DNA of 54,136 nucleotides, the filler included, from Jimgerdemannia flammicorona (Eukaryota), in NCBI GenBank assembly GCA_003990765.1. It is 3 parts of 3 records of this genome, joined end to end, with 100 filler letters (N's around TTAATTAATTAA, not from the genome) between each part and the next. Parts side by side here need not be neighbours in the genome. Positions count along the whole stretch, not along the records: positions 1 to 17,982 come from RBNJ01002341.1; 2 more parts are not named here. One strand, 5' to 3'. Shown in pieces: positions 1 to 53,784 of the stretch. Numbering within the stretch: position 1 is the first letter of the stretch; every line of letters begins with the position of its first letter. Under the pieces are notes generated by a model. It worked only from the letters and a program-made list of their open reading frames with translations. It was not told the DNA's origin and made no database searches. A program made the translations under genes and the position numbers.

Positions 1-1072
1 AATAGATTCAACAATGGCTGCCGACAAGGAAATACGGGCCGAGGCTCTAGGTGAAAGCGAGTGGGACGTACTTAGGAATGTTGTCAGAGTTTTGGAAGTA
101 AGTGGTGGTTGCCCTGGCTCCACACTCGTTTTGTCTGCCTCCGCACAGTGCAATACCTCACCACATATAACTGCCAGTGTTTCGACGATTGTACAAAGGA
201 TATAGTCAAACAAACGACCCCGACAATAAGCTCTGCGATACCAGTATATGTACAACCTTCTGATTGACCGGCTAGAGGACAAGCTCGAGGACAGGCTAGA
301 GGGTTGTGGTGATTTATGGTTAAGCCTGGATCAGAGAGACGCCGTGGTGGTTGCTCTAAGCAAGCTTAGAGAATACTATACCCAAACAGATACCACCGTA
401 TACTCAATCAGTACAAGTATGTTGATGTCGGCGTGTAGCCATTACCCCTTCCAAAACAAGAGGAAACCCCGCAAAAACTCACTCTCCTTTTCTTCGAACA
501 GTGCTGGACCCACGCTTAAAGCTACAATACCATAAAGATCAGGGCTGGGAGCAGCACTTCATTGAGAGAACCAAGCAGGCCGTAATTGAAGTGTACTGGA
601 AAAACTATGCACCACTGCAAGGTTCTGGCCGAAGTCCGGACGAATATGCCGAGGGATCCCTCCTGTCCCACATTTACTTCGGCAGAAAGAGGAAGAGGGA
701 GCCATCAGTGGAAGAGCTGCCATCAATAGATGAACTTACCATTTACCTCACCAGCGACCGCGTGGTCCTGCTGGAGGGCACAGAGGTGCTCAACTGGTGG
801 AAGGTGGGTTGTCTGGTGGGCATTGGGCCAATTTAACCCACCAATCTAACCACCGCTCTACTCTACCCATGGGGCATGCAGCTGCGTCAAACAGACTTCC
901 CCAGCCTGTGTGGTATGGCTTGGGACTACCTGGCGATTCCTGCCTCCAGCACTCCCGTCAAGCGGGTGTTCTCAGGTGGGGTGGACCTCATTGCCCCAAG
1001 AGGTGTGTGCTGAATGCTGAGACAATCCGGGTGTGTATGTGTCTGAAGTCTTGGTGGGGCTCAGGCCGCTAA
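1..1072 (+). pseudogene. hAT-family transposase, C-terminal part (spliced, frameshifted)
   Basis: Joined exons read EWDVLRNVVRVLE..PTISSAIPV..VLDPRLKLQY..EVLNWWK|LRQTDFPSLCGMAWDYLAIPASSTPVKRVFSGG..LNAETIRVCMCLKSWW, the hAT dimerisation domain. GT..AG introns at about 98-178, 417-501 and 804-880. Frameshifts near 248 and 997. Confidence 0.9.
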
Positions 1073-1139: not shown

Positions 1140-1724
1140 AAGGAAAAAAACCCGAGGACTCGGCCCGGAGTTTGCAGCCAAAGTGGGGCGGGGTTGGCAG
1201 CCCCAAGCTGCCAGTGCCTGGGTCGGTGGGCGGGTTGGTGGGCAGGTCGGCGGAGGGAGCGTGCAAAATTTGCGGCTCTCCGCTGGCAGCAAGGGGCAGC
1301 CCCAAGCCACAAGTGTCCGGGTCGGGGGGGGAGGTGGAGGGAGTACGCAAAATTTGCGGCCCTCCACCAGCAGCGAGAGGCAGCCCCAAGCTGTCAGCGC
1401 CTGGGTCAGTGGGCGGGGTCGGTTGGTGGGCAGGGCAGGTGGAGAGAGTGCACAAAATTTGTGGCCCTCCGCCAGCGGCATAGGGGCAGCCCCAAGCCGC
1501 CAAGGAGTCCGGGGCGGAGGGTGCTTCTGGCAGTCGAAGGGTGCTTCTGGCAGTCGGAGGGTGCTTCTGGCAGTCGGAGGGTGCTTCTGGCGGTCAGAGG
1601 GCATTTCCGGCAGTCGAAGTTGCCAGTTCGGGTCCCACGGGCACCCCGGCCCTGCACCGCAGTGCCGCACCGGCGGCACTACAGAGCAGGGCCGAGGGGC
1701 CGGTAGGGCCCTGTATAACGGCTA
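1140..1724. repeat. Subterminal repeats and probable right end of the first hAT element
   Basis: Recurrent GCAGCCCCAAGC and CAAAATTTGCGGC units, and a 20-bp tandem GGGTGCTTCTGGCAGTCGGA at about 1519-1620. Ends ..CCCTGTATAACGGCTA, a CTA terminus typical of hAT elements. The left end is outside the window. Confidence 0.6.
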
Positions 1725-1825
1725 AGCTAGTGCTACATAAGAGGCGCCCGGCCCAACCCCCCCATATAAGACTGTCCAACCTGCACAAAATAGCTGCCTA
1801 ACCCTCATGAAAGATTGCCTAACTC

Positions 1826-3851
1826 TCACAAAAACTGCTCCACCTGCCAGTCCCAGGCCTTGATGAGCCTGTCATCCGTTGTGAGTGCGACGACTGTTGT
1901 GTCCAAGCTCTCCTCGAAGGCGACGGTGCCGTGGTGGTCATGTGGTTAGAATAGGATGGCCATGTTGGCCGCAAACGGGACCCCGAAACCATAGGTGAGG
2001 TCGTACCAGACTCCGCCGCTGTCCTCCCAGGTTGGGCCCTTCCTTTCCGAGACGTAAAACATTACCGGAGTGACATTGTTGTCTGTGTGTATGGGTAGAG
2101 AAAGGTTGCGCCCGACATATCCTGATGTGATGTGAGCGTACGGTTGGGTGAACCCTTGGCCCAGGACCTCATACTGCCAGGCTGTGCTGGTGGATGCCTG
2201 CCCTTGGTCCAGCCCCGGGAGCCCCGGCTTGGAAACCTGCCAAAACGGACGGCAACCGGTCAGTCCTTTTTGTGTTCAGGGGGCAGAAACCCCCCGGGCC
2301 GCAGAAACCCCCTGGGCTGCAGCACCCCAAAAAAGCAGAGCTCCTCACCTCATACAGCATGCTAAATTGCGCCAAGAATGTACGTACAGCCGCGCCGAGA
2401 TCACCACCAAGCTGGCCTGCCGTACGCTCTACCAATCTGCTCAAAGAACCCCAGATCATAGCCACCATCGCCGCACAGGCCGTGTCATGCTTGCGCGCAG
2501 TTTGCTCTTCGATGGCACTTCTAAAGTTCCGGTAGGGGTACAGAATCTTGTGTATCCCTGGAATTGTATCAAAAAGAGTATGTCGGCGAAGAGTGTGATT
2601 TATCTGGGGAGGGGTTAAAAAAAAAGGGAGACAAGTGTGGGGGATTTCGGAACCCACCCTTCACCAGTGTTGCAGTATACCCAATTCCCGTCCAAACCCC
2701 CCCTCCTTGCTTTTTTCGCCCCCTCTTCCCTGCCACCCAGTATTTGACACAATCCTCGCAAATCTCGTTGATGTGGCAGTGAAGCTCGTCGCCGTAGAGG
2801 TTCCTTACCACCATCGCAACCATAGATATGGTTCTCTTCATCGTTGGTTACTCCTGCTGGCCAATGGACCCCTTGGTCAAGTATGATTGGCTCTGATTCG
2901 AATGTAGACCCCCAAGCCTTGATGATGATGTTGGTACTGCTCATGCTGAACATCTTGCCCTCGAATTTCTCTATTTGATCAGATGCTGGACATGGTTGAA
3001 CTCGGGTAACTTTGAACTCTCCTTTCCACTGGAACTGAGCCCTGATCTGGGGGACCAAGATAAGTATGCGGATGGGTTGCATATGGGCGGGTTGTGGGCG
3101 GGTTGCGTGTAGGCGGGTTGCGTGCGGGCGGGTGGGTTACATGCGGATGGGTTGCATGCGGGTTGCGTGCGGGTGTGGGTGTTTTTTAGGGGGAGACCAT
3201 GTAAAAATGAAATTAAATAAAACACAGAGATGGGTATTTCAGAAAAAGAGCACGAGTGAGTGAGCTGCATGCCGATGAGTTGCATGCCGACGAGTTGCAC
3301 GCCGACAAGTTGCACGAGTTGCACAAGAATTGCTCACGAAGGCTTGCTTCTGTTCCTTTTGAGACCTCCACCACGCGATGCATTGACTCAACAGCTCAGC
3401 TACCAAAGGCATGCCCCACAATGTCCGCCAGCCTTTCTTCATCTTGACCAGATATTGCGAATAAAGTTGGCAGATCTCGCCATAGAGCTGTGGACCCTGA
3501 GAAAAGCACGAGGTGAATTGGATCATGCTGGGGAAGTTTAAATAAATAAACACAAGTAAACAAGTGGTGGCCGAGTGAGCAACCTACATCTACTATTGGC
3601 TGCTCCAAAAAGGCTGCTGCGTACATAGCTATGAGGTCTGTGAATTCTGAGGTCCGAAGGGCCGCCATGAGTTGTTGTCGGAATTCTCTCTCATCCCCGC
3701 TATCACCATTGCCATCGCCACTGCCACCGCCACCGCCATCACCCCTTTGGCTCTCGATGAGCAGCTTGTGTGCTGTCCATATGAGAAAGAATCTAACATT
3801 GTCAGCAGAGAGTGCGTTTCCACCTTGAATACTCCCTCTTTTGACGATCAT
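1826..3851 (-). pseudogene. TET/JBP-like 2OG-Fe(II) dioxygenase pseudogene (multi-exon)
   Basis: The minus-strand frame reads GRNLSLPIHTDNNVTPVMFYVSERKGPTWEDSGGVWYDLTYGFGVPFAANMAILF*PHDHHGTVAF. HxD lies at 2089-2081, the distal His at 1933-1931, and one TAA at 1948-1946. Upstream exons include KRGRKKQGGGVWTGIGY. The 5' limit is uncertain. Confidence 0.6.
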
Positions 3852-4054
3852 TGCAGGGTGAAAAATGAGTAGACTGGACCAACGTACGAAATTTAGGGCT
3901 GCTGTTTTGTTTACTCGTGATGTGGCAGGAAAGAATAAAGAAAAAGAACAAAGAAAAGAAGGGAACAAAGGAAAGGGTGATGTCACCAAAGTGTGGCAGA
4001 AAAAAAAAACAAGAGCGAAATGAACAAAAGAAAGGGTGATGTCACCAAAGATTT

Positions 4055-4235
4055 CAATCCGAATGGATCAATCCGGATGGGTCAATCCGGATGGGTCAAT
4101 CCAGATGGGTCAATCCGGATGAATCTGGATCAATCTGGATCAGATCACGAGACCAATCCGAGTTGATTCGAATCTATCACATGACGAATCTGAATAGAAT
4201 CTCATTTGGATCAACTCCATTCGTTCAGAGCACTA
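4055..4235. repeat. Subterminal repeats plus hAT-type terminal repeat
   Basis: Tandem ATGGGTCAATCCGG-like units ending ..CAGAGCACTA. Its reverse complement TAGTGCTCTG matches the consensus TIR start of the hAT element at 25125-31821. Confidence 0.55.
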
Positions 4236-4239
4236 TATA

Positions 4240-4406
4240 TAACAAAGTTCTAATTTATAATTTGATATTACTTAATTATTTAATAACTCTTTTATAGTCT
4301 ATACTGTTTTTATTAGCTCTCTTATAGATTATATAATATTTTATTGAGATTTTTTTTTTAAAAAAATTATAGTTATTATACTAATTAAATCTACTAGTTT
4401 TTATAA

Positions 4407-4439
<33 letters not shown>

Positions 4440-5339
4440 TAAAAAAAGCTTTAAATATTATATATAATATAATATTATTTCTATATAAGTAACTTATTTT
4501 TAGATTATAATATATTTTAATTATAATATACTTTTTATTAAATATATTATTTTATTTTATTATTTTTTTTAAAGTAAAGTTTTCTTACTTTATTTACTAT
4601 ATATATATCTTATTCTTTTTTATTAATATATTATAAAATTTTTATAAATATATTTAATAAGTCTTTATAGCAAATCTTCAAATTATATTTTTGTTATAAT
4701 AAAAGAAATAGTTAATAAGATAGAGTTAATAATAGTTATAATAAATAGTAAAATATTATCTTTAGATTTATATATTAGTATTACTACTATCTCTTTATTT
4801 TTTCTTTTTATCTAAATTAAATAATATTTATAAGACTTTAATAGAATTTTTTATAGTGAGAATTATTTAAGCAATAAAGATAGAGATGGCTATTTAGATA
4901 ATAGATAGTAGAAATAAAGATAGCTATAGCTGAGATCATAAAAGTAGAGATAACTTTCCTATACTTATTAGATAGAATTACTTCTCTCCCTTCTCTCCTT
5001 ATATCTTTTGATCTTTTTTATTCTAATAGTGAAAAAGAGATAAATAGTTCATTATTACTAATAGTAATAACATTTACTTCAGCTTTAGGTAGAGATTTCT
5101 AATTTAGACTGAGAAAGTATTAGTATAGTAGATTTGTAAAACTGAAAAGAAATAACTTTAAAAGAGCTAGTATTAGTATTAGAGAAGTTCACTTATATTT
5201 CACACAGTGGTTGAGTTATAAACATTACTGTATATATGTCACTATATAAATGTCACTGTTCAAAAGAGAGAGAAATTATGAACTCACTAAAATCCTATCC
5301 CCTAACCTGCACCCATTTTTGGAACCCCTCAACTGTGTA
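4240..5339. other. Extremely AT-rich decayed repeat relic, possibly a DNA transposon
   Basis: Abrupt AT-rich, CpG-free block. It ends in ..CCCATTTTTGGAACCCCTCAACTGTGTA, which resembles a TA-flanked Tc1/mariner end. No readable ORF. Confidence 0.3.
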
Positions 5340-5735
5340 CTCAAAGTTTGAAAATGGAAAAAAGCTGTGATGCCAGCTTCGTCTGATACCTGTCCAAAAA
5401 TAACATCTCGTCTCAACTTTGAGTACGACTAATGACCTGTGCCCACACGTTTGCGAATCGGACTGATTTTGTGGTCGTCCAGTAACTCAGAGATACTGAA
5501 CTTATATTCACAAAATTAACCATACCCATACTTTTATTCGCAATGCTATGCTTCGCAATTATGCAATCATATTCCCATCACACTTCCCTATCCACTTTCC
5601 CACTAACTAACCACATGGTCACGTCGCAAGAGGTACCGAGATGCTCGATGCTAAACATAATCAATCCCGTTCCTCTACCTCGCTATCCACGCTACCGGGC
5701 CGCTACTAAGCAACGCCCGTTGTTGGGCTGCCGAC

Positions 5736-6968
5736 TCAGTCGTAGAAGTCAATGTGAGTTCCCGAGCTGAACCCGGCTTCGGTGAGGAGGAGGAGGTTGA
5801 CCAACTTCGTCGCCGAGTCCTCCATCCGAACGAGCTTGCTCTGCGATGGCGATATTGGGTAAGGGGACCAATGAAATTGATGACCAACCGAGCGACAGGA
5901 GAACTTCGAATTGAGACACCGAAAACGTAGTGTCGATCCCATATCCAAAATAAGCTCACACGTCGACCAGTTAAACCCACCTCTGTATGCATCTTGGTGT
6001 ACAATTCTTTCTGCTCCATGTCCCCCAGAGTGTTGCGCACGTCGCGCTGCATTTCATTATCCAGTGGACCGGGCGCGTACGAGAGAGTTTTGACGTCGTT
6101 GGAAGCCTATTGCATGAAGATAACGGATTAAAATGGAGGATGACGGATATGGTCTGACATTTGAGTTTATGGACCTCCCTTCCCCAGAAAATTGTACCTC
6201 TTCCAGAGCTATAACCTTCAATAGCTGGTCCCTGGCCGCCTTCGCCGTGGAATACAGCCCCCAGTACGGGAACGCCTGAATTGCCAGCAGAGAGGAGATA
6301 TTGACGATGACGAGGCTAGGCGAGAACGGGTGCACATCATCAGCGGATCGGGTTCTGGGACGGAAGTAGGAGAGGAAGGAGGAGCTGACGAATAGAAAAT
6401 TTGGTCAGATAGGCAATAGGCCATAAAGCGTCACCCAACATAGGAAAATGATATGAAGTTGGTTTATTACCAGAGCGCGCTGAAAGACACAATGTTAATG
6501 TCCGTGTAATGTTTGATGTCGCGCCAGTTGTAGCGGGCGACAGTTTGTGAGAGGTTGCCGAGGGAGGCAGCGTTGTTGATAAGGATGGCTTTGGTGATTG
6601 GGGGGCCAGTTTCACGGACATCCTTTAATGACAAAGTGGAGTTTCAAATTAAGACGGCATTTTTGCCCGGAATTGGGCCACGAACTACCATTCAACCATA
6701 CCTCAATGGCCGTTTGAATCTTTCCCAACCACTCGTCTGTCCTCTCAATCTCATCGAACTGCACGTCGCCCACGACCACGACCTTGGTGGTCTCAGACTT
6801 GAGCTCGGCCTGAACGCGCTCGAGGGCCGTAGTGTCGCGGCCGATGAGGATGAGGGTGAGGCGGGAGGGCGGAGAGACGGCAGACGAGGTAGTAAAAGCG
6901 TGAGCGACGGCACGACCGAAGCCGCGATTCGCGCCGGTGATGGTAACGAGGATATGCGGGTGGAGCAT
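5736..6968 (-). CDS. Sepiapterin-reductase-like short-chain dehydrogenase/reductase (multi-exon)
   Basis: Motifs TGANRGFG, LINNAASLG, VNISSLLAIQAFPYWGLYSTAKAAR (YxxxK), YAPGPLDNEMQ and C-terminal FSSGTHIDFYD*. The exons join in frame through GT..AG introns. Confidence 0.88.
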
Positions 6969-7282
6969 GATGTTTTTGCAGAGAGTGGTGGTATCACCAC
7001 CAGAGGTTTTGGATTTTAGAGGACGTCTTCTCAAAACACTTGGCGGATAAGCCACATTGCCACATGACGACTGTGGGCCGAGCTCGCCATGCAATCGAGA
7101 AAGACAAATACCACCATGAACGAGATTTCTCAATTGGCGAGACAGCCACCAACCGAAAATTCCCCGATCGATATCGACGACAGCCAGGGTCTTGCAAAGT
7201 AAAATCGGAACCCACTAGGACATCCTATTTGGAAGAACGCCCACCGATCCATATAAGGGTGATGGCACTGGTCATTCTCCTC

Positions 7283-7292
7283 GTGACGTCAC
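7283..7292. promoter_or_regulatory. Palindromic ATF/CREB-type site in a divergent promoter
   Basis: GTGACGTCAC about 50 bp upstream of the LSM3 ATG, within the 376-bp gap between the head-to-head SDR and LSM3 genes. Confidence 0.3.
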
Positions 7293-7344
7293 CCACACGC
7301 AAAAACGCCACCCTCCAAACCCACCACTTCGCAACTCTCTCACC

Positions 7345-8036
7345 ATGTCTGACGTCGTCCCCGCCCCCACCACCGCCGTTCCCGCCCCCGCCCCGGAGAC
7401 CAATGCCGTCGAAGAGCCCCTGGACCTCGTCCGCCTCTCGCTCGACGAGCGCATCTACGTCAAGCTCAGGGGCGACCGCGAGCTGAGGGGGAAGCTGCAC
7501 GTACGTGTTTAGCAGCTTCGCGTGTTGTGCGAGAAATCGAGGGCGCTGACAAGTGTATCGATGTATGACGTTGTGGTGTATTTTGCATTAGGCTTACGAC
7601 GGTCACTTGAACATGGTGCTCGGCGACGTCGAGGAAACCATCACTGTGGTGGATATCAATGAGGAGACGTACGAAGAGGTCATTCGGGTATGTCGCGGTT
7701 TCACAATTTACTTTCTCTACTGTCTTTCCATATTCTAACATAATAGGGAGGGCAGTACCAATTTGAATATCTCTCATTGTCCTCACTTTTTTTTGTTATT
7801 GGTCCTGCAGACGGTGAAACGCAACTCGGAAATGCTCTTTGTGCGTGGTGACGGCGTGATTCTGGTACGTGTGGATATGGCATATACATTCTATGTAGTT
7901 GACCGAATGTCCATCGAGCCCATATTGACCTCGCGCATTGTGTCTATTTCGACCTCATACTCAATCTTGCTCCTTTTCTTTCTCTTCCCGCCATGTACAC
8001 GCTACATCGCAGGTCTCGCCACCGTCGCGGGCGTGA
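7345..8036 (+). CDS. LSM3: U6 snRNA-associated Sm-like protein LSm3 (4 exons)
   Basis: [47 protein letters not shown]..|[25 protein letters not shown]. Introns at 7501-7591, 7688-7810 and 7865-8012. Confidence 0.96.
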
Positions 8037-8406
8037 CGGGTACGGTGAGGGGTTGCGTATGTTTGGAACATTTATCCTATATCCATATTGTGTGATTGGA
8101 GTTGTTTTGCGATCGGAGTGAGTGCCTGACCAGTAGTCACTGTTTGATCATTTTGAGTACTGTATCGAGAACCAATATAGTGGATTTTGTTTTTAATAGA
8201 GAACCGAACATGAACTCAGCTTGTCCGTTTTCTTTATAATATGTAATATAGCACTGCCCCTTAAAAAAATACTGTCATTCGTTGCGTGTGACGTCTGTCT
8301 CGACGGCGTCACAATAGAGTGTCAACATCAAAGGCTTTTCAAACCCCGGGGTGTGGTATCAGATCCTACATGCCCACATCTCTAACCCCCCCCCTCCCCT
8401 CTGGGC

Positions 8407-10403
8407 TCACTTCCTCAACGCCTGCCCAAAGTTGACCCCCTCCTCGCTGAAGTCCTGCCGCCACAGGACTTCCTGGGCGTAATACAGTCCGGGCACGTGG
8501 CAGTTGTCTTTGCACGTGTAGATGAGCAATGTACCCCAGTCCAGCGAGTTCGAGACGGCGTGATCGATTTGGAGGTGGATAAGGAGGGTGGACAGGACCT
8601 GTGTAATCGTGTACCGTATTGGAGGAGGCTTTTGGTTAGACTCGTTCCGAGGGTGCGGGCGCGTCTTGGAGAGTGGGGCCGATTACCTGGAACTCGAATG
8701 TGCGCTCCCCCCCGCAGTGCTCGCACCGCGGGATGTCGTCTGGTTCCGGCTTGCCGTGGTCGCTGACCCAGAGTGGGTTGGGGTTTTCGAGCTCGTATTC
8801 TACGCGCGCGTAGCTATGGTTTAGTCGAGACGTGAACGAAGAGGAAAGAGCGTGGGCGATAGCATGAAAAGGGGAACCGAAGAAACACTTCATAAAAAAC
8901 CCGTCCGTTCCCAATCTCTAGCGATAAATAACAATGCCTTTGGATCGTATCGTACCGTAGAACCTGCTCGGGCTCCAGCTCAACTTTCTTCTGGAACTTG
9001 AGGAACGCGCTGTCGACGTTGACTTTCGTGTTTTCGTAGGTCTCGTCGCCGACAGGAACGAGGGCTCGGGATGGATCTGGATTACATGACGCATAGTAAG
9101 TGCAGATGAGGGGACAGATCACACTAACCGTATTAAAACATACATCAGCAGAGGAATAGCCAATAGACAAAACAGAAGAGATTGAAGAGTAATACCCTCT
9201 CCTCACATGCCCAAATCATCCCAACTATCCTTCGTACCTCCTCAAAAATAAAATGAAATCGTACCGAACCCAAGCTTCGCCACTCCCTCCGTCACTTGCT
9301 CGACCCCATCAACCCCACGCTCCTCCTTTATCGTCTCCTCAAAGTACCTCTGCTGCTCTTCTTCCTCCTCCGCCTCCTCGCCGGCCCCCTCGGGTTCCGA
9401 AACGATCTCTTTCTCCGGGAATACCCACCCCGCCTCCCTCAATGACCGCTGGTCCAACTCCACTAACTGCGCCGGTACGTCCCCACCCAAAGGGCACGTG
9501 CGTTTGTGTAAACCTTCTGTCCAGTGTGCCTGCTGGTGATCGCGCGAGCAGTAGTGCGCCAAGTGGCACTTGGAGCATGTCTTGGGTCCGTGCAGAGAGC
9601 AGACTGTACAGAGCGGTGGAGGAGTGAAGGGAGCCGGGACGAAAGGCGCGGGTGCAAGTTTCGACGTCGGGTTCGGGTTCGGCGTCGCCAGGGTTGGTGT
9701 TGTCGTATCGTCGTCGTCGTCGTCGTCGTCGTCGTCTTTGGATGTCGGCGGATAGTATGGGTTATGCTGGGGGAGTTGGCTGCGGTACACTTTGAAGCTG
9801 AGGTGCGGTGGGGCAAGGGGATCATCATCAGTTGTATTCTCATGAAGATTGTATGTCGCGGAAGTGAACAAGGCATGCACGGAGAATCCGCCTTTATACC
9901 TGCTCCTCCAAGACTGTTTATGACATGATCCTTTCCTGCAGCAGAACACGTAGACAGTGCGGTGGTATGACTCAATGGGATGGTCCTCTGGCGTGTAGAG
10001 CTTCAAGTAAGGCGCCAGATCAAAGCATATTGAGGAAGTTGTATAGACTTGAAATACTGCAAAAGAAGCGAGAGAGGCCTCCGGATCAGATCAGTTCCTC
10101 ACCTGTACCAGTAACTTCAATGGCTTCCCGCAGACTCCGCACTTGACCGCCTCCACATCCAGTATATGCTCCGGGTTTAGCCACGCCTATGTCCAGAAGC
10201 AAATCGAGAGGAATCAATATTCCACTCACAGCTCCCCCTCTTCTCTCCAACCAACCTCCGATCTCATTTCTTAAACGCACTGGCTTTCCGCCCAACTTGC
10301 TCGGAAACGTGTCGGCCGTCAGGGGCGTCACGGGGTCCTCGGCAAAGCCGAGTTGGACCACCGCGGCGCGGCCCGCGGGTACTTCGTCCTCGATGTCGGA
10401 CAT
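8407..10403 (-). CDS. PDCD2/TSR4-like protein with MYND zinc finger (multi-exon)
   Basis: VQLGF..FPSKLGGKP, YHRTVYVFCC, MYND finger CTVC..CSKC..YCSRDHQ..HW..HKRTC, and a PDCD2_C region IPRCEHCGGERTFEFQ..LDWGTLLIYTCKDNC..QDF. Confidence 0.9.
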
Positions 10404-11541
10404 GGTGGAAAAAAGAAAGAACCCTTGAAGGCACCAGAGGCGAAAAACAAAATTACCTTCTTGTGGCTTGTACCGCACGTGGTTTGACTGGTTTGGGTTC
10501 GAACAGAGATACTAGGCTTAAATCCACTTGCAAGCAAAAAAGGATAGATGAAACATCTCAACAATGAGCGTGGCAAACTTTAACCGTCTCTCAGAAGGCA
10601 AAAAAGCAATCAATATTACAAATATATCTTTTTCAAATAAATAAATAAATAAAATAAACATGAATCTATAAATATAGTTTTGATTTAAATAAAATGATTT
10701 GAATTGATAGGCTCCAATTCAATTCACCTCTCATGAGTGCTTCAAGGACCAGCTTCTTTTCCAAATTGCGGTTCACATGAGAAATAACGTGACTTAGCAA
10801 GACCCATTACATAATTATACACGTGGTTTTATCTTCGACCGCTACGCCTATCCGTTGTGGCACCCACAGAAATCTCGGCCGAGCCGTCAAATAACGAGAC
10901 ACTGAGCCGGATAACCCCGATATACAGCAGTAGTTGTAAGAGAATGCGAGCTGAAAGCTTATCCAAGTCAAAAATGATGGAAGAAAATTATATTACACAC
11001 AATAAAAAAAAGTTCACAAGGCACATGTCATATTCCACGCAATAAAAAGTTCAGAAGGCACATGCTATGTCAGGCTTTGTCTCTGGCGACCACTTATTCC
11101 AAATTCTTACATTCGCGTCGTCTTGTTCCTTGTCCCGCTGTCTTTGCAACGACCCACCATTAGTCGATCCTTTCCCTGAGAGAGAGACTAACGATCTGTA
11201 TCACACGTATCGTGGGTATAATTCTGTGTGACATCATCTCAGCCCATGGTTAACATTCCCCAACACCGTCGACATCAGAAAGAGAGACTGGGACAGCATC
11301 CCGGGTTTGCGGTCTAACCCCTTCACTAGTGGCCTTCGGGTTGCTCTGAAGAAAAATTTAGGCACGCCAACCCTGAGGCCGCACGGGGCGGGCAAATGCG
11401 TGCGGCGACAGGTTGTTGGGAACTTTGACGCTTTTTTGACATGAAAAAAAGGTAAAGCATCCTATTTTATTTCCCGACTATGTGCTACGCCTTTTTTTTT
11501 TTTTTTTCTGTCCACATACGCTGACATTTTTTGGCCGACGC

Positions 11542-11601
11542 GCCGGTCTTGGCTGCTCTTAAAGCCAACTGATGAGCCCCTTGAGCAAGGGCGAAACTGG
11601 T
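11542..11601 (+). ncRNA. Type III hammerhead ribozyme
   Basis: GUC cleavage triplet 11546-11548. Stem I TTGGCT/AGCCAA. Core CTGATGA 11569-11575. Stem II GCCC/GGGC. GAAA 11593-11596. Stem III GCCGGT/ACTGGT. Loop I GCTC is complementary to loop II GAGC. Confidence 0.88.
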
Positions 11602-11789
11602 CCATGTCGTCGAGATGCGGTGCCGGCTGCCTTGCTGAAGTACAGACCCTCAGTCGAGCTGCTAGGAGCATAATTACATGCAAATGTGTCATTCCGCACT
11701 TTCCAAAAAGTTAAAACTATACTAGAGATCCAGTATCAATGATATCTTAGTACCCCGCGAATCATAATTTCGGGCATGACCAACGACAA

Positions 11790-11889
<100 letters not shown>

Positions 11890-11949
11890 ATATTCATTTT
11901 ACATCTTATCGGACTTTCCGACCCGAATTCTTACACAATTTTTTACCTT

Positions 11950-12400
11950 AGCCACGGCAACATTCACATCACTCTCGCTCAAGGCCAGATAGACCTTGTC
12001 ACCAAGGTCGCGGTCATCAACAAGAAGGTTGTTCTCGTCCTGACCGAGGATCGTCCTCGTGTCATCCAGAACGCCGCCGATGTCTCCGGGCCGTGCTCCA
12101 GACCTTCCTCCCCGCCCGTGGGGTGGCCTCGCCATTGGCGTGGTGCTCTTGGTATCACCAACCCATCCGGTCGCCTTCGGCACACCTACCCTCGCTACCT
12201 CGGCAACCAAGGCCTCGTCTACTGGCGCCAGGTGAACGACAACAACTGGCAGTCCCTGTACGAGTTCGGCCACGGTTTGAGCTACTGGACGTTCGCCTAC
12301 TCCAACATCACCGTCTCATCCACGACTCTGACCCCCAAGCACCCTGTCAAGGCCTCCGTGCGTTCCCTGTCGATGCTCCTTTCACGCATCTGTGCGCCGT
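11950..12400 (+). pseudogene. GH3 beta-glucosidase C-terminal fragment
   Basis: QIDLVTKVAVINKKVVLVLTEDRPR, GITNPSGRLRHTYP and LYEFGHGLSYWTFAYSNITV are GH3_C motifs. There is no N-terminal catalytic domain, and the segment shows internal deletions and frameshifts. Confidence 0.8.
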
Positions 12401-13281
12401 AGCTAGGTTCGTCGTCAGACCAGTAGGGTAGTTGGTGCGACGCGCGGAAAGGTTGAAATTTTAATTTTCACAGTACTTCACGACTGACTTTTGCCAGGCC
12501 CTTTTCTTCAAAGTACTTCAAAACTAGCCTCTTTTCCTCATAGATCCCGGGACTATTTCTTTCGCAACTCATCGTCGCTTCGACCTGCCGTCGTCGCCAC
12601 CTAGGCCCTCTTAGGCTGAGCTATCGAGAAGTACGGGCATTGACAATACATGGACCTAACAAGGATTACCGGTGCCGATCACCCGTTACAATATGAATTC
12701 CAACGGCGACGACTGGATCTCCTTCACGGCCACGAATCTCCGGCCGCTACCTCCTGTGCTCGACAGATGACTGGAGCGGGCGCTTGATTTTGTTTGGCGT
12801 CCGGTCAGTGCGATCCCGACCGACGAGTTCAATATGTTGGCATCCGAGTGACAAGTACTTATTCGTTACGGAAGACGATTGGAAGGTGAATTTCGCACAG
12901 GAGAAGATGGTGGATAAGCTGGTGGGGCAAGGCCGTGGTCAGGAGACAGAGTGGAAAGCAAAGGACGACTGTGTCTATAATCCCCTCTATAAACAGATAC
13001 AGTACGCATAATTATATCGACCATACAATCTCTTCAATTGCCAGTCGCCTTCTCTAGGTTTTATTTCCAGAAGCCTGCCGCGATGCCCTATTTTTTTTTT
13101 TTTTTTTTTTTTTTTTTGATCATGAGATCGGATCTGCCACATTTCCGTGTACGTCATTATTAGCCAATGAAAAACTATAGTGGCACGGCGAAGGTCTAAA
13201 AAACCAGCAGGCCGTGGACGTTTTTTTTCCTCTGCCCTCGTCTTCATTTCGCGATAACACTTTACACTTTTAATAGAAAAG

Positions 13282-14003
13282 ATGTTCCTTCGTCCGAACC
13301 TTCTTCACTTCTCAATCCTCAAACGCCTGAGCTTCCCCCCTCGACCAGCACGCGCCTACACGACCACCCCACTCCGCCACGATGCTACTCCATATGTCCG
13401 TTACATAGCCATTGACAACCCGCGAAAGGGCAACGCCCTCTCCCTGTCCGTCCTCGAGTCGCTCGAGCACCAGCTGCTCGCGGTAAATCCGGGATGGAAG
13501 TACTTTGGTCGCGACTGGGAGGTTCCCTGGGAAGGAGATGATGCAGCCTTGGAGCGGTTCTGGAAACCGCTGAATCGTGAGGTCAAGGTGGTGATTTTGC
13601 GGAGCGAGGGCGAGGGTGTGTTTTCGTCGGGACACGATCTGAAGGAGATCAGGTGTGCAGATTAATTTGCGGCGTTCGAGATAGCTACAGGACGTGTCAT
13701 TTATAGTTGTTATCCTACCAGCACACTAGACTCAACCCTACATGCCAAGATATTCGATGCCTGCAATCGGGTGATGATATTGATCCGCGAACTACCTCAA
13801 CCGGTTATCGCACAGGTATACTGAAAGTACATGTTTCTTCGTAATTGTAATAGTATTTATGTTCAACTGCAAATTTCACATATTCTGGTTGCGTAGGTGC
13901 AAGGTATCGCGACGGCAGCGGGATGTCAGCTCGTAGCCACGTGTGACTTAGCGGTGGCGAGGTGAGGTCTTTCTTTTTGCGGTTTATTGTTCATGAAAGG
14001 CTG

Positions 14004-14039
<36 letters not shown>

Positions 14040-14656
14040 TCTTTCTGTGAATAATTGGTCGTGGCCCAGCGATAAGGCAACGTTTGCAACACCAGGTAGG
14101 CCGAAACATGCCAGATGTCTTAATTCACGAACACTACATTCTGTGATAATGCCTGCCATTAATTATAATCATCCATTACTTCGGTTTCATTAGGTGTCAA
14201 CATCGGTTCGTAAACCCACCATGTTTCACACAACCCAACCGACCTGCACTTCCCACTAACACAGTCCCTTAAACTCCCCCACCCATAGGCCTCTTCTGCA
14301 CCACACCCTCCGTTCCACTCTCCCTTAACCTCCCGTCCAAGTCCCTTCATCGCCTCCTCCTCACTGGCACACCGATCCCGGCCTCCGAAGCACTCTCTTT
14401 ACACCTCATCTCCCATGTGTCCCCGCACGACACCCTCGCCTCCGACACGCTGGCGCTGGCTGAGGGCATCGCGCGCGCGAGTGGCCGGGTGCTAGCGCTG
14501 GGCAAGTACGCGGTGAGGACGCATGCCGAGATGGTTGGGTTGAGGGAGAAGTACGAGTTCGGAGCGAAAGTCATGCGGTGGAACGTGAGGCTCGGGGACG
14601 CAAAGGAAGGGGTCGCGGCATTTTTGGGCAAGAGAGGGGCGGTGTTTAAGGATTAG
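13282..14656 (+). CDS. Enoyl-CoA hydratase/crotonase family, ECHDC3-like, probably mitochondrial (multi-exon)
   Basis: KGNALS, FSSGHDLKE, LPQPVIAQ|VQGIATAAGCQLVATCDLAVA, FATPG|VNIG|LFCTTP and DAKEGVAAFLGKR. The Arg-rich N-terminus looks like a presequence. Confidence 0.9.
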
Positions 14657-18082: not shown

Positions 18083-21000
18083 TTTTTTATAGTCCCTTGG
18101 ACTCCGTCTTTATTATCAGTCTATGAATAAGTATATAATATCACCACCCACTATCTGATCCTCATTGGGGGGCCCCTCCCCACCTCTTCATGTACAAAGA
18201 CCACTCTCTCACCAATAACTCCAACTCTCCCACCACTCTGACCACAGATTTTCACTACCAAGTGGTACCTCTGACCCCCCTGCAGCCCCCAACCAAGCCA
18301 CCAGCCTGTCAAGGTATCCTCTATAAGGCACTGCCAATATGATAACCAGCTCTCCAAGCTCTGTCGCCTCTCCTCCTCAAATACAAATAGCCAGTGACCA
18401 GCCAGCCCAACCCAAATAGCCAATGCCCAGCCTAGAGTAATCTACTCCTCTCCTACCCCTTCTATCAATCGATCCCTCAGGTCCTCCCACCTCCCCCATA
18501 CATCATCACCCCTATACCTTACCCCCAAGCAGTCCCCAATGGCCTGCCAAAAGTCTCCCAACACCTCACACTCCCCTAGCCAATGTTCTGGCATCTATAC
18601 AAATCCCCCTTCCTGCCCTACATTATGGCACTCCTTGCAGTCAAAGCAGCCCCCTACAACAAGGTGTCCTGAGTGGAAGTTAAGCATCACATTCCTCCTC
18701 AGCATGCGCCACCAGACCACCCAGTACTTTGGCAGTATCCAATTTTTCACTGCGGCACTCCAGATCTAAACCCCATGCCAGTCCTACTCCTCACCAATTC
18801 CAACTCCTTGCCAACCACTAGGCCACAGATCCTGGCCTGGTCCCCTTTGGCATTCGATGCCATCACTAATATTGAACTTAAGTAAAGGCATGCCTCCCAG
18901 AAGAATGCTATCCCATCTCTACATCACTGGGCCCCAAGCCCTCTCCCCCTCATCCCCTTACCAGCGAATACCAATGCAGTGTGCCCCCTCAGCTATCCCC
19001 ACCAGAAGCCTTTATATCTCAGTTGTGCAGTATTCTGAAGCCCAACGAATGAAAGAAGATCACCAGTCAAGCCTCTTGGTGATGTCTGCCTCTCCCATAC
19101 CTTCTGTAGCAGAGGAACCCAGCCCCCTCCACGCAACTCCACCACCCTCCTCAGCCACTATGCCCTCAAGCAGTGTAGTCTTTTGGGGAAGTCCACCAGC
19201 CCAAGACCACCTCTTGCCACTGGTAGGGACAAAGTCTCCCAACCAATCTGACTCTGTCTGCCAGCTCAAATCCATCTCTTGGCCACCTTCACCAATCTCT
19301 TCACTACCTAGGCTGGAAAGTCCAGATGATAAGCCAAATACCACAGCTTTGGCAGCCAGTATATATTCAAAATCGAGATCCTTTCTGCCAGAGAGAAGTG
19401 TCTACCCCCCCAACCCTGCAGGTCCTCCTCCCAAATTCCAATCCTCTGCTCCCACCACAGCCTGGACAAAACAGACCCATAGACTAACAAATAGATGCCC
19501 AGGTACTGCACTGCCTCTCCAGTGGGGACAATTGTTCCAATAACTTCTCCACCCACCAGGCTGTTGCCCAGCACTATTGTTTCACACTTGTGCCAATTCA
19601 GCTTCGCCCCAGAGTTCTCCTCATACTACTCCACTGTCTTCTTGAGCTCTTTGACATCTGCAGTCACTCTCAAACCAACCACCATATCATCTGCAAAGGC
19701 TCCAACCTTCCAGCCAACTCCATAGATAGAGAGCCCCACTATCCTCTGCTGAATCCTGTCCATTAGAGGTTCCAAGGAAAGAGCATACAAAATGGGGGAC
19801 AGTGGGTCCCCCTGGGGCACTCCCCTACCCAGAGGAAATGCTACCCCTCTATGCCCATTATACATGAGTGCAGCCCTACTCCTTTCCAGTAGGCTGACCA
19901 TCACCGACTGAAATGGGACTGGAACCCCAATTCTATCTAATACTTTCACCAGCCAGACTTACCGCACCTGGTCATAAGCCTTCTCCTGGTCCAAGAAGAC
20001 AAGACACCCATCTAGTCCACAGACTCGAGCACCTTCAATAACTCCATGTACCCAGGCCATGCCATCTCTAATAAGCTGACCCCCTATGAAGCCCCTCTGC
20101 TCAACACCCACAATTTGCTGGGCTATCTTCTATAGTCTTGCGACCACCACCTTAGTCACCAACTTTCTGTCCATATCTAGCAACATTATTGGCTGCCAGT
20201 TCTTCCAATCCTCTTGCCTTCCCTTGTTCTTATAAAGCAGCATCACCAGCCCAAGATCCTGCTCCCCCACCCATCTCCCCGACTGTAATATAGAGTCACA
20301 CAGTACTGTCAACTCCCCCAACATGCCCGGGACTCCAACCATTCACTTCCAGAAGTCCCAGGAGAGGCCATCCTCCCCAGGCGCCGTACCTGAGGCTGTC
20401 GCGGCAAGAACCTGGTAGATCTCATCCTTCTTTACAGGCATCATCAGGTCACCTAGTCCTTCAGCTTGTAGTGGGTGCCAATCTTCTAATATTTGGTCAA
20501 TGACCATGGCATCCACCCCACCCTCTTCCTCACTCCACAATCTACTCCATCGCACCTTCAGTGTACCAAGGATGTCCTGTACACTATGTACTAGTACACC
20601 ATCCAAGTCAAGTACCCCTTCCCACTGCTGCTGTACCCTTCTCGCTCGAAGTGTCCTCATGAGAAACTTGGAAGGTCTCTCCCCTTTCTCCAGCCCCTGC
20701 CAATGCAGCCATGCCACCAGGCCTTGCACCCTTGACTCTTCCTCTTCCCACAGCATCTGTTGTAGTTCCCCAACCTCTATCTTCACCCTCATTATTCTCC
20801 AATCCTTTTCTCCCTCCACTACTGCCAGTCTCGCCCACTCCTCCAGGAGCCTAACAAATCTAGTAGAAGCCCATCACACTTTCTGTCTTCGCTGCTTTCC
20901 AGCCACTCTGCCAGCCTCGCTCCAATACATCCTAGCTATCTCTTTCATTCTCATCCACCGAACCCCAATCACAGCCTCTTCCTGCCGCCAATTCACCACC

Positions 21001-34800: not shown

Positions 34801-36060
34801 TGCTCAGCAGCTAGGGGTGAGTAGATTGCATAGATTCAAGATCTTTTAGAGGAGGGCACATTCTTGAAGGATGGGGTAGATGTTCTGGGAGGTGACTTCA
34901 ATATAGTGCAGAATCTTCAGTTAGATAGAACTGATGGTGGAAGGAGTGCTGGTGGAAGGAGCAGCAGCCTGGATATATGGAAGAAAGTAGAGAATCTTAG
35001 CTCCTTAGGAGATATAGGCAGAACACAGTAGGGAGAAAAGAGGATCTACATGCATTGGGTAAATGGTCTAGGTACAAGGATTGACTAGATACTGATAGCC
35101 AAATACTGGGGCCTGGATGTTTGGAGAACTCTAGAGATAGAGTGGTACCTATGGTCTGACCATTGGAGACTGTTAGGGCAGGGGAGGTTTGGAGAGAGTA
35201 GAGATAGACCTAGATATTGATGCCTTAACTCCTCTCTGCTGACCAAGAAGGTATTGTGGGACTATTGGGTGGAGGACATTCAGGGGAAGATCATAGGCTG
35301 GATACATAAGGGCTTATAAGTAGATGTCCAGTGGATGAAGTTGAAAGAGACAGCAAGGGCTTACTGGCTCTCTTTGGTGGGGCTGAATGGAATTAGGAGG
35401 CTGTGGTTCAAGGGCTTTTGGTGGGGTGTGACTGATGGGGTACACCCAATTGACTTGCGCTGGCAAGGCAATGAGGGGGAGGCAGTGTGGGGGCCTAGTA
35501 TGTGGCATTGGGATAGACTGCTCCTGGGGGGTGCTCCACTTGCTACGTTCGATATTGAGGAGGAAGTAGAGTGTCAGCAGGGACTGGGCCAGGATCTTTG
35601 GCCGAGTGGATGGCAGGCAGCAGGGATCGGCGAGGAGTGGGACTGGGCTGGTATCTGGTCTTGGAGTGCAGAGGTACAGAGGTGGCTTCCTCCCAAGTTC
35701 TGGGTGGTATGGTGGAGAATGTTGCAGAGGAATGTCATGCTGAATTTCCACACAGGGCATTTGGTAGATGGTGGACAATTCAACTGTGAGGAGTGTTATG
35801 ATGGCGGGGATCGGCGAGGAGTGGGACTGGCCTGGTGTCTGGTCTTGGAGTGCGGAGGTCCGGAGGTGGCTTCCTCCCAAGTTCTGGGTGGTATGGTGGA
35901 GATTGTTGTGGAGGAATGTCATGCTGAATTTCCGCACAGGGCACTTGGTGGATGGTGGACAATTTGACTGTGAGGAGTGCTATGGTGTTGGGCAAGCTGG
36001 GGGTCATGTACAGACGCCAGAACATTGGCTTGGAGAGTGTGAGGTATTGGGGGGCTTTTG
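31850..36060 (+). mobile_element. Rearranged L1/Tx1-type LINE copies
   Basis: A post-RT fragment (about 31850-32340), an ORF1 homologue (32682-34441) and an APE domain (from about 34490). The sequence then jumps directly to the C-terminal zinc-finger region, so RT is missing. A tandem duplication of about 186 bp lies at about 35620-35990. Confidence 0.88.
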
Positions 36061-53765: not shown

Positions 53766-53784
53766 GTTCGTTGAAAATTAAGAG

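What the first reader, a model, noticed from the sequence alone, without database searches (positions are those of the whole stretch)
1826..2850. Hidden TET/JBP-like dioxygenase not visible in the ORF track
Seen: after removing a GTGAGG..TTTGGCAG intron (about 2348-2237), the minus strand gives ..SGYVGRNLSLPIHTDNNVTPVMFYV..SGGVWYDLTYGFGVPFAANMAILF*PHDHHGTVAF... This is N-x5-HxD, then GG-aromatic..G..hydrophobic strands, then HGT. Known: this layout is that of the double-stranded beta-helix of TET/JBP 5mC/T oxidases, which in fungi travel with transposons (KDZ and Plavaka families). Inference: a decayed transposon-borne DNA-base-modifying enzyme. The single TAA is one C>T step from CAA.
Basis: partly seen in the sequence, partly recalled or inferred. 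Interest (0 to 1): 0.7.

Follow-up and report, generated by a model that had tools for sequence, protein, structure and literature searches.

The report
Decayed TET-like dioxygenase gene copy
A broken, three-exon copy of a repeated mushroom-fungus gene that most likely encoded a transposon-associated TET/JBP-type DNA-base oxidase; it is an ordinary genomic fossil from a poorly catalogued branch of that enzyme group.

Summary
The quoted peptides, the GTGAGG..GGCAG intron (2348-2237) and the single in-frame TAA (1948-1946) are all present on the minus strand. The gene is larger than reported. It has three exons spanning about 3046-1826 and a second intron at 2657-2558. Both intron positions and phases are shared with a distant relative on a metagenome contig.

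It is a pseudogene. Besides the TAA (CAA in other copies, Gln in the closest protein), it has a 20-nt frameshifting deletion at about 2820-2824 and no recognisable 5' end.

No Pfam, PHROGs or PDB sequence match exists, and two AlphaFold models were poor. The TET/JBP assignment therefore rests on a chain. The family matches a Moniliophthora protein (hhalign 97%, E 9e-11). That protein carries the signature motifs of Kojima's (2025) "PE-type" transposon-borne TET/JBP dioxygenases. Language-model neighbours are all PF20515 or PF12851. The weak model hits only cupin and 2OG-oxygenase folds. The HxD...H triad is conserved.

Public runs hold many diverged copies. The window copy's private changes are mostly CpG to TpG. 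The only adjacent transposon trace is a hAT remnant, with no KDZ or Plavaka domain.

Verdict: a real gene fossil.

The parts
1826..2236 (-). Exon 3 (last exon), including the terminal TGA at 1828-1826. It encodes the His-x-Asp (His 2089-2087, Asp 2083-2081), the GGVWYDLTYGFGV strands and the distal His-Gly-Thr (1933-1925).
   Evidence: Translation. tblastn of P0003, P0004, P0005, P0006, P0008 and P0009. Alignments.
1946..1948 (-). In-frame TAA, private to this copy. Other copies read CAA (Gln).
   Evidence: + strand 1948 A>G in 17 contigs of X1 (depth 105.3 of 109.3), in X2 (6.53 of 6.53) and in X13 (2.7 of 2.7). P0003 has Q at this position.
2237..2348 (-). Intron 2: 112 nt, phase 0, GTGAGG..TTTGGCAG.
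   Evidence: Sequence. The frame continues MLYE|VSKPGLPGLD. L001 has an intron in the same position and phase (GTGAGA..TTCCAG after ..RLYL). P0005 and P0009 read across the junction. No RNA splice joint was seen.
2349..2557 (-). Exon 2 (..IHKILYPYRNFRS..QFSMLYE). It encodes the helical region between the N-terminal strands and the HxD strand.
2558..2657 (-). Intron 1: 100 nt, phase 1, GTGGGT..TTCCAG, splitting a Gly codon.
   Evidence: Deduced from the sequence and the gapless match GYTATLVKG-IHKILYPYRNF to P0009 GYTVSYASG-MHSCITPYRNF. L001 has a phase-1 intron in the same Gly codon.
2658..2823 (-). Exon 1, 3' part (MVAMVVRNLYGDE..GYTATLVK-G), in the frame of ORF 2569..2847.
   Evidence: tblastn with P0005 residues 109-186, E 1e-6, and with L001 exon 1.
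2820..2824 (-). Site of a 20-nt deletion that shifts the reading frame.
   Evidence: contigs of X13 carry 20 extra letters here, and contigs of X1 and X2 end in loose letters at 2824. L001 exon 1 aligns to the window as two linked HSPs in different frames, Expect(2) 1e-8.
2825..3046 (-). Exon 1, 5' part, in the frame of ORF 2615..3136 (..KAWGSTFESEPIILDQGVHWPAGVTNDEENHI). There is no start codon region comparable to P0005 residues 1-30. Tandem repeats begin at 3067.
   Evidence: One search shows homology to about 2920. The stretch from 2920 to 3046 is aligned by eye only. ORFs, tandem repeats. Repeat-family depth falls beyond about 3040.
430..1013 (+). Remnant of the C-terminal part of a hAT-superfamily transposase (one in-frame stop). 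It is convergent with the dioxygenase pseudogene and runs off the window's left end.
   Evidence: PF05699 Dimer_Tnp_hAT: E 8.7e-7, 29.1 bits against cut-off 21.4, and E 1.6e-7 on the read-through frame.
1196..1616 (.). Tandem and direct repeats between the hAT remnant and the pseudogene (20-nt unit x5 at 1515-1616, and ~140-200-nt direct repeats at 1196-1521).

Best explanation
Window ~3046..1826 (minus strand) is a dead copy of a repeated three-exon gene of Agaricomycete fungi. Intact relatives encode a ~370-residue protein. I read that protein as a divergent TET/JBP-type Fe(II)/2-oxoglutarate dioxygenase, sister to the 'PE-type' enzymes that fungal DNA transposons carry. On this reading, intact copies would bind Fe(II) through the His-x-Asp (PIHTD) and the distal His (HGT) on a double-stranded beta-helix. 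They would oxidise a methylated base (5mC, possibly 6mA or T) in DNA and so counter methylation-based silencing of the element that carries them.

Shown here: homology, exon structure, conserved triad, multi-copy status and the lesions. Inferred: the fold, the TET/JBP affiliation (through a literature link), the substrate and the transposon carrier.

The window copy cannot make the protein. It has a TAA replacing CAA, a 20-nt frameshifting deletion, and no 5' end. It has accumulated mainly CpG-to-TpG transitions, as expected for a methylated repeat.
For: Real gene family:
- Exhaustive phmmer finds 6 proteins with E<=1e-3 in 1.84 billion (P0003 84% identity, E 1e-71; P0005 is a 374-aa full-length form).
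- P0009 was found with P0005.
- Two metagenome loci carry the same gene.
- Both introns sit at the same codon and phase in the window and in L001.

Triad:
- His50 is invariant in 7 of 7 aligned sequences.
- The acid position is D in 4, N in 2 and E in 1. L001, 97.7% identical to the N-bearing P0006, has D.
- The distal HG is present in 6 of the 6 sequences that reach it.

Link to TET/JBP:
- hhalign of the family without P0008 against P0008 gives probability 97.0%, E 9.2e-11, over 132 columns. It aligns HxD with HxE and HGT with HGT. BLASTP of P0001 against P0008 gives E 4e-11.
- Six short motifs of P0008 occur in Kojima's Table S1 only in rows typed PE (ENQPH 4, GIRV 4, GGHFY 3, MAPP 3, GLAIVTS 1, AANTV 1).
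- Kojima reports that PE-type proteins resemble CMD1, NgTET and CcTET by predicted structure (E<1e-5) (section 3.2.3, read).
- Atlas language-model search with P0009: 30 of 30 named neighbours carry PF20515 (8; best 0.94 with 191 shared features) or PF12851 Tet_JBP (22). The window's own exon gives the same families at 0.89 and 0.88.

Pseudogene and repeat status:
- (L002 also carries two TGA stops).
- 440 contigs of one soil run and 31 of 'organism A' lie on the stretch at 80-100% identity.
- Of 40 listed variant sites, 30 have T/A in the window and C/G in at least 60% of X1 depth. 21 of those 30 are CpG, against 112 CpG among 667 C-dinucleotides in the region.
Against: - No Pfam family at E<=10 for any of 4 window pieces or 6 relatives, so neither Tet_JBP nor any 2OG-FeII model matches.
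- No PHROGs family of relevance.
- No relevant PDB chain by sequence or profile in 7 searches.
- Both AlphaFold models are poor (mean pLDDT 38.9 and 39.2).
- The clade has HxD, not the HxE that Kojima gives as the PE hallmark.
- Its own motifs are absent from his table (0 hits).
- The P0008-to-PE step rests on motif look-ups and alignment by eye, not on a scored alignment.
- An Arg after the distal His is present in most but not all members.
- No transposase of a class known to carry PE-type genes is in the window.
- No activity has been measured for any PE-type protein, according to the sections I read.
Confidence: 0.72

Rival explanations
1. The family is a 2OG-Fe(II)/cupin-fold protein that is not a TET/JBP-type DNA-base oxidase. 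It might be, for example, a prolyl-hydroxylase-like or AlkB-like enzyme, or a small-molecule oxygenase that happens to be amplified. The window holds a dead copy of it.
For: The best structural matches to the weak model are prolyl hydroxylases, AlkB/ALKBH/FTO and plain cupins, not TET entries. No Tet_JBP Pfam match was found. HxD..H is common to the whole superfamily.
Against: All 30 named language-model neighbours are Tet-like families. hhalign links the family to a protein with PE-type TET motifs. The N-x5-HxD/E, GG-aromatic and AAN..HGT blocks match the PE-type rows of Kojima's table by eye. The model is too poor for the ranking among 2OG families to carry weight.
Confidence: 0.17
2. The family is not an enzyme. 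It is a repeat-borne ORF whose His/Asp/His pattern is incidental or vestigial, such as a structural or DNA-binding accessory protein of a transposon.
For: The acid residue is N in P0006 and P0007. The Arg expected to hold 2OG is not invariant. Many copies are pseudogenes.
Against: His50, the GG..Y..G..V..N block and the distal HG are conserved across sequences that are only 25-37% identical. The N-bearing sequences are near-identical to L001, which has D, and one of them is truncated. This suggests decay of copies rather than a family without the triad.
Confidence: 0.07
3. The window copy is still expressed as a working protein, through stop-codon read-through, RNA editing or an alternative exon structure.
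For: A metatranscriptome run holds contigs of family copies. The triad codons themselves are intact in the window.
Against: There are three independent lesions: the TAA, the 20-nt frameshift and the missing 5' end. The RNA-run contig that covers 1948 reads CAA, so it comes from another copy. One RNA-run contig runs unspliced through the intron-1 acceptor, and no splice joint was seen.
Confidence: 0.02

Closest known systems
PE-type TET/JBP dioxygenases of fungal DNA transposons (Kojima 2025, PMC12730594). [quoted passage not shown]
   Same: The order of blocks is the same..MV.VV.RN.., G...G[YMW][ST]AG, N-x5-H-x-acid, GG-aromatic, G-I/F-R/G-V..AAN, HGT/HAT..[ST]xRL (by eye against Table S1 rows). 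The family scores hhalign 97% against P0008, which carries the PE signature motifs. Like the PE type, it is undetectable with Pfam and occurs in Agaricomycetes as a multi-copy gene.
   Different: The clade has His-x-Asp, whereas Kojima gives His-x-Glu as the PE hallmark. Its own motifs (YGFGV, WYDLTYG, GGMFYN and others) give 0 hits in his table. The carrier element is unidentified here. The only neighbour is a hAT remnant, and hAT is not listed among carriers of the PE type.
Pfam PF12851 Tet_JBP and PF20515 2OG-FeII_Oxy_6 (Tet-like 2OG-Fe(II) oxygenases), with the structurally known CcTET, NgTET, TET2 and CMD1.
   Same: They are the language-model nearest neighbours. The HxD...H triad and a predicted beta-rich C-terminal half match. 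The weak model hits cupin and 2OG-oxygenase folds.
   Different: No HMM match at E<=10. No PDB sequence or profile match. No TET-family structure is among the listed fold hits. By my reading of the alignment, the Asp reported as essential for 5mC in CcTET (11 residues after the first His) has no counterpart in the window. This last point was not tested.
TET-carrying hAT7 transposons of rust fungi (PU-type; Kojima 2025).
   Same: A hAT transposase remnant and a TET-like gene lie within 800 bp of each other.
   Different: Those elements are in Pucciniomycetes and carry PU-type genes, which Kojima separates from the PE type (abstract; section 3.4). Here the two remnants are not shown to belong to one element. 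No terminal inverted repeats were found, and the window cuts the hAT part.

Membership tests
TET/JBP dioxygenases (2OG-Fe(II) superfamily) | Double-stranded beta-helix (cupin-type) catalytic fold | tested here: inconclusive
TET/JBP dioxygenases (2OG-Fe(II) superfamily) | His-x-Asp/Glu plus distal His facial triad, conserved among relatives | tested here: met
   The window has H50-T-D52 and H102-G-T. His50 is invariant in 7 of 7. The acid is D in 4, E in 1 and N in 2, and the near-identical genomic copy L001 has D. The distal HG is present in 6 of the 6 sequences that reach it.
TET/JBP dioxygenases (2OG-Fe(II) superfamily) | Match to the Pfam models Tet_JBP (PF12851) or Tet-like 2OG-FeII_Oxy_6 (PF20515) | tested here: not met
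   hmmscan at E<=10 found no such family for 4 window pieces or for 6 relatives, including the full-length P0005. Only language-model neighbours point to these families.
TET/JBP dioxygenases (2OG-Fe(II) superfamily) | Basic residue that binds 2-oxoglutarate downstream of the distal His | tested here: inconclusive
   An Arg lies about 20 residues after the His in the window, P0003, P0004 and P0008 (..DDRL/..DERL/..SNRL), and within one column in P0005 and P0009. It is absent in L001. Its role is inferred from recalled knowledge of the superfamily.
TET/JBP dioxygenases (2OG-Fe(II) superfamily) | Oxidation of 5mC, T or 6mA in DNA | not testable with these tools
   No biochemical data are available. 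The window copy is broken.
PE-type transposon-borne TET/JBP (Kojima 2025) | Sequence similarity to PE-type members | tested here: met
   hhalign of the family against P0008 gives 97.0%, E 9.2e-11. P0008 motifs occur only in PE rows of Table S1. The step from P0008 to the published PE sequences rests on motif look-up and eye, not on a scored alignment.
PE-type transposon-borne TET/JBP (Kojima 2025) | HxE in place of HxD (stated hallmark of the type) | tested here: not met
   The window, P0003 and P0004 have HTD. P0005, P0009 and L001 have HVD. Only P0008 has HTE. The hallmark is stated in section 3.4 of the paper.
PE-type transposon-borne TET/JBP (Kojima 2025) | Encoded inside a DNA transposon (Zisupton, IS3EU, EnSpm, Plavaka or Helitron) | tested here: inconclusive
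   The gene is multi-copy in public runs, and a hAT remnant lies 800 bp away. No transposase of the listed classes was found in ORFs of 75 aa or more across the whole window, or in read-through frames of 1-1100 and 3001-6002. No terminal inverted repeats were found. No genome is held in which to trace other copies.

The most novel reading that the evidence does not exclude
[quoted passage not shown] It kept the ancestral HxD and spreads in Agaricomycete genomes on a carrier not yet linked to this type: either a hAT element, or a compact ~1.25-kb unit that is little more than the gene itself. Similarity among copies in public runs covers exons and introns alike but fades about 30 bp beyond the stop codon and near the 5' end of the coding region.
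Probability: 0.2. Interest if true: 0.5.

Novelty: new member of a known kind. Interest (0 to 1): 0.35.

Why it matters
Fungal transposons that carry their own TET/JBP oxidase are thought to erase the methylation that silences them. Cataloguing these genes is hard because the most divergent ones escape Pfam and gene callers. This locus shows that such copies can be recovered from raw sequence. It adds a small HxD-bearing clade next to the recently defined PE type. It also gives an example in which the supposed anti-methylation gene was itself eroded, mainly by CpG-to-TpG changes typical of methylated repeats. For this window the practical result is annotation: a pseudogene, not a working enzyme.

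Tried and rejected
- **Pfam and PHROGs.** Pfam hmmscan of the window pieces and of six relatives found nothing relevant. PHROGs gave only chance-level hits.
- **PDB by sequence or profile.** Seven searches gave only chance-level hits such as coatomer WD repeats, an antibody VH and Rv1738.
- **Word-indexed protein searches.** A search for longer forms of exon 3 found none. P0005 as query found only P0009. The family alignment found no new member.
- **Locus scans.** Bacterial/archaeal genomes and viral contigs gave none. Metagenome contigs gave two loci that are 99% identical to each other.
- **Structure.** Two AlphaFold2 runs on shallow alignments of 9 rows both gave pLDDT about 39. The fold searches therefore show no more than 'cupin-like'. 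The absence of TET entries from the listed rows says nothing either way.
- **RNA evidence for the introns.** No splice joint appeared in the one RNA run laid. One of its contigs runs unspliced across the intron-1 acceptor. All runs were contigs, so neither expression nor absence of splicing can be judged.
- **Habitat or organism from runs.** Shares were 0.34 or less, so I draw no conclusion.
- **Paralogues in the window.** None.
- **Terminal inverted repeats around the gene.** Only three weak pairs of no evident meaning.
- **Earlier notes of this scan.** Nothing by sequence, place or words.
- **Calls that could not be made.** The whole genome is not held. Cluster members could not be listed. 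The record of L001 is not held.
- **Rejected idea.** I dropped the idea that the piece upstream of 2848 is separated by a third intron. The frame change sits exactly where other copies carry 20 extra letters.
Full report
**Observation.**
The minus strand of 2236..1826 translates as VSKPGLPGLDQ..SGYVGRNLSLPIHTDNNVTPVMFYVSERKGPTWEDSGGVWYDLTYGFGVPFAANMAILF*PHDHHGTVAFEE..WQVEQFL, followed by TGA. The one internal stop is TAA at 1948-1946. The upstream frame ends ..AQFSMLYE immediately before GTGAGG (2348), and the acceptor ..TTTGGCAG ends at 2237. The match is far from chance. Independent database proteins hit exactly this place by tblastn at E 2e-73, 3e-41, 6e-19 and 8e-20.

**Full anatomy.**
- Matching the window to the full-length relative P0005 (374 aa) and to P0009 (259 aa) reveals a second intron, 2657..2558 (GTGGGT..TTCCAG, phase 1). 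Removing it gives GYTATLVKG-IHKILYPYRNF, a gapless match to P0009's GYTVSYASG-MHSCITPYRNF.
- A genomic relative on metagenome contig L001 is about 35% identical in protein and has 34% G+C. It has introns in the same Gly codon (phase 1) and after the same ..LY-x codon (phase 0), both GT..AG. The exon structure is therefore ancestral to the family.
- Exon 1 continues 5' of 2823 in another frame (..WPAGVTNDEENHI). L001 exon 1 aligns to the window as two linked segments in different frames, Expect(2) 1e-8.
- Upstream of about 3046 the sequence turns into short tandem repeats (3067-3314). Nothing corresponds to the first ~30 residues of P0005.

**It is a pseudogene of a repeated family.**
One call laid contigs of four public runs on 1750-3100.
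- The numbers of contigs laid at 80-100% identity were 440 (soil run X1), 23 (X2), 31 ('organism A', X3) and 4 (metatranscriptome X13). Up to 21 different contigs covered one site in X1 and up to 6 in X3. I read this as many diverged copies. In metagenomes, several strains or species could contribute.
- At + strand 1948 the other copies read G: 17 contigs in X1 (depth 105.3 of 109.3), and all covering depth in X2 and X13. That is CAA on the coding strand. The closest protein, P0003 (84% identical), has Gln there.
- At 2820-2824, X13 contigs carry 20 extra letters, and X1 and X2 contigs end in loose letters.
- Differences among copies are almost all transitions (for example X1: 112 transitions and 2 transversions by kind of place).
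- Of the 40 best-supported variant sites listed (198 more were not shown), 30 have T/A in the window where at least 60% of X1 depth has C/G. 21 of those 30 are CpG in the majority form, against 112 CpG among 667 C-dinucleotides in the region. This is the pattern expected from deamination of 5-methylcytosine in a methylated repeat. That reading is an inference; methylation was not measured.
- L002 is 99% identical to L001 over 2716 nt and carries two TGA stops in the same gene. Decaying copies therefore exist elsewhere too.

**What the family is: negative results first.**
- Pfam gives no family at E<=10 for four window pieces or six relatives.
- PHROGs gives nothing relevant.
- Seven PDB sequence or profile searches give nothing relevant.
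- Exhaustive phmmer over 1.84 billion representatives finds only six proteins. Word-indexed searches add one more.
- Two AlphaFold2 runs on nine-row alignments gave mean pLDDT 38.9 and 39.2.

**What the family is: positive results.**
1. Conserved residues. His of P-x-H-x-D is invariant in 7 of 7 sequences. The acid is D in 4, E in 1 and N in 2, and the genomic copy L001 of the N-bearing pair has D. G67, G74, Y78, G83, V86 and N91 are invariant. The distal H-G is present in all six sequences that reach it.
2. Language-model neighbours. For P0009, 30 of 30 named Atlas neighbours carry PF20515 2OG-FeII_Oxy_6 (8 clusters; best scores 0.94, 0.93 and 0.92 with 191, 170 and 175 shared features) or PF12851 Tet_JBP (22). 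For the window's own exon the same families appear at 0.89 and 0.88. The tool calls such hits leads, not proof.
4. The bridge to published work. P0008 is Moniliophthora perniciosa hypothetical protein MPER_04261. The family profile built without it matches it at hhalign probability 97.0%, E 9.2e-11, over 132 columns, with HxD aligned to its HTE and HGT to HGT. BLASTP of the window exon against P0008 gives E 4e-11.
5. The published PE type. Kojima 2025 (PMC12730594; I read the abstract, sections 3.2 and 3.4, and parts of Table S1) defines 'PE-type' TET/JBP dioxygenases. [quoted passage not shown] They are detectable only by HHpred (E 1.4 to CMD1) and by predicted-structure similarity to CMD1, NgTET and CcTET (E<1e-5).
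6. P0008 looks PE-type. Six motifs taken from P0008 occur in his Table S1 only in PE rows. By eye, the window peptide shares the PE block order: MV.VV.RN; G...G-aromatic-[ST]A; N-x5-H-x-acid; GG-aromatic; AAN....[FW].P.D.H[GA]T; [ST]xRL.

I could not enter the published sequences into scoring tools. That last step therefore rests on motif look-ups and alignment by eye.

**Differences from the PE type.**
Kojima states HxE as the PE hallmark. The window, P0003 and P0004 have HTD, and P0005, P0009 and L001 have HVD. Motifs specific to the window's clade give 0 hits in his supplement. I found no paper describing this clade in three full-text searches; for most papers I saw only listings. Supplements of other papers were not examined.

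**Transposon context.**
Pfam scans covered all 242 stop-to-stop ORFs of 75 aa or more (plus three shorter ones near the window's left end), and the read-through frames of 1-1100 and 3001-6002. They found no such transposase.
- The only DNA-transposon trace nearby is the C-terminal dimerisation domain of a hAT transposase at 837-1013 (+). It scores E 8.7e-7, above Pfam's cut-off. It is convergent with the pseudogene and cut by the window's edge.
- Tandem repeats fill the 800 bp between them and also lie upstream of the gene.
- No terminal inverted repeats were found.
- Whether the hAT remnant and the gene belong to one element cannot be decided without the genome, which is not held.
- Similarity among copies in the runs covers both introns as strongly as the exons, but drops outside about 1796..3040. 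This may reflect contig breaks at tandem repeats, or a small duplicated unit. I leave it open.

**Mechanism, with what is shown and what is inferred.**
- Shown: a conserved three-exon gene family, a conserved His/acid/His pattern, kinship to a PE-type-like protein, multi-copy status, and the lesions in this copy.
- Inferred from the named literature and general knowledge of 2OG-Fe(II) oxygenases: intact members fold as a double-stranded beta-helix, bind Fe(II) with H50, D52 and H102 (window numbering of exon 3), use 2-oxoglutarate, and oxidise a methylated DNA base. This would help the carrier element escape methylation-based silencing.
- The substrate is unknown. Kojima notes that CMD1-like or thymine-directed chemistry cannot be excluded even for the PE type.

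**Verdict.**
This is a real, correctly spotted gene fossil. The TET/JBP reading is probably right (about 0.7), but it is indirect. The copy is dead from at least three lesions, and its carrier is unidentified. It adds a member, perhaps a small HxD sister clade, to a kind of system already described. Interest is modest.

Noticed in passing
window 18548-23534 and 32786-36060: Two diverged (66-74% identity), inverted copies of one element flank an AT-rich core (24-32 kb, 21-35% G+C). The left copy carries RVT_1 (19629-19958, minus) and Exo_endo_phos (21234-21836, minus), so it is LINE-like. Both copies have extreme strand composition, with GC skew about -0.45 and +0.45 (2214 C against 868 G in 18-24 kb).
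   Followed up: partly
window 1796-3040: The window copy's private differences from the majority of copies in public runs are mostly CpG to TpG (21 of 30 scored sites). This suggests the repeat was cytosine-methylated. The nonsense mutation itself is CpA to TpA.
   Followed up: partly
window 1750-1800 and 3040-3100: Similarity among family copies in the laid runs covers introns as well as exons. It falls off about 30 bp past the stop codon and near the 5' end of the coding region. Either the contigs break at the flanking tandem repeats, or the duplicated unit is only about 1.25 kb.
   Followed up: no
window 3396-4067 (minus): A 223-codon open frame lies directly upstream of the pseudogene on the same strand. 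It has a Gly/Asp-rich stretch and no Pfam match. It might be another gene of the same element or a chance frame.
   Followed up: no
window 4000-5000: A very AT-rich block (20% G+C) with short tandem repeats lies between the repeat-rich left end and the host genes.
   Followed up: no
window 6060-14653: This stretch holds ordinary host genes in several exons: short-chain dehydrogenase (6060-7214, minus), PDCD2_C with a MYND zinc finger (8410-10090, minus), a GH3 C-terminal domain (11743-12399, plus) and enoyl-CoA hydratase (13258-14653, plus). An amino-acid permease fragment lies at 53538-53771 (plus).
   Followed up: no
L002 1185 and 1880: This metagenome copy of the relative's gene is 99% identical to L001 over 2716 nt. 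It carries two TGA stops (Trp and Arg codons in L001). Copies are therefore decaying by transitions in that organism too.
   Followed up: partly
L001 2320-2945: Two open frames of about 94 codons lie downstream of the intact relative on the 3.7-kb contig. They have no Pfam match, and no transposase was seen on that contig.
   Followed up: partly
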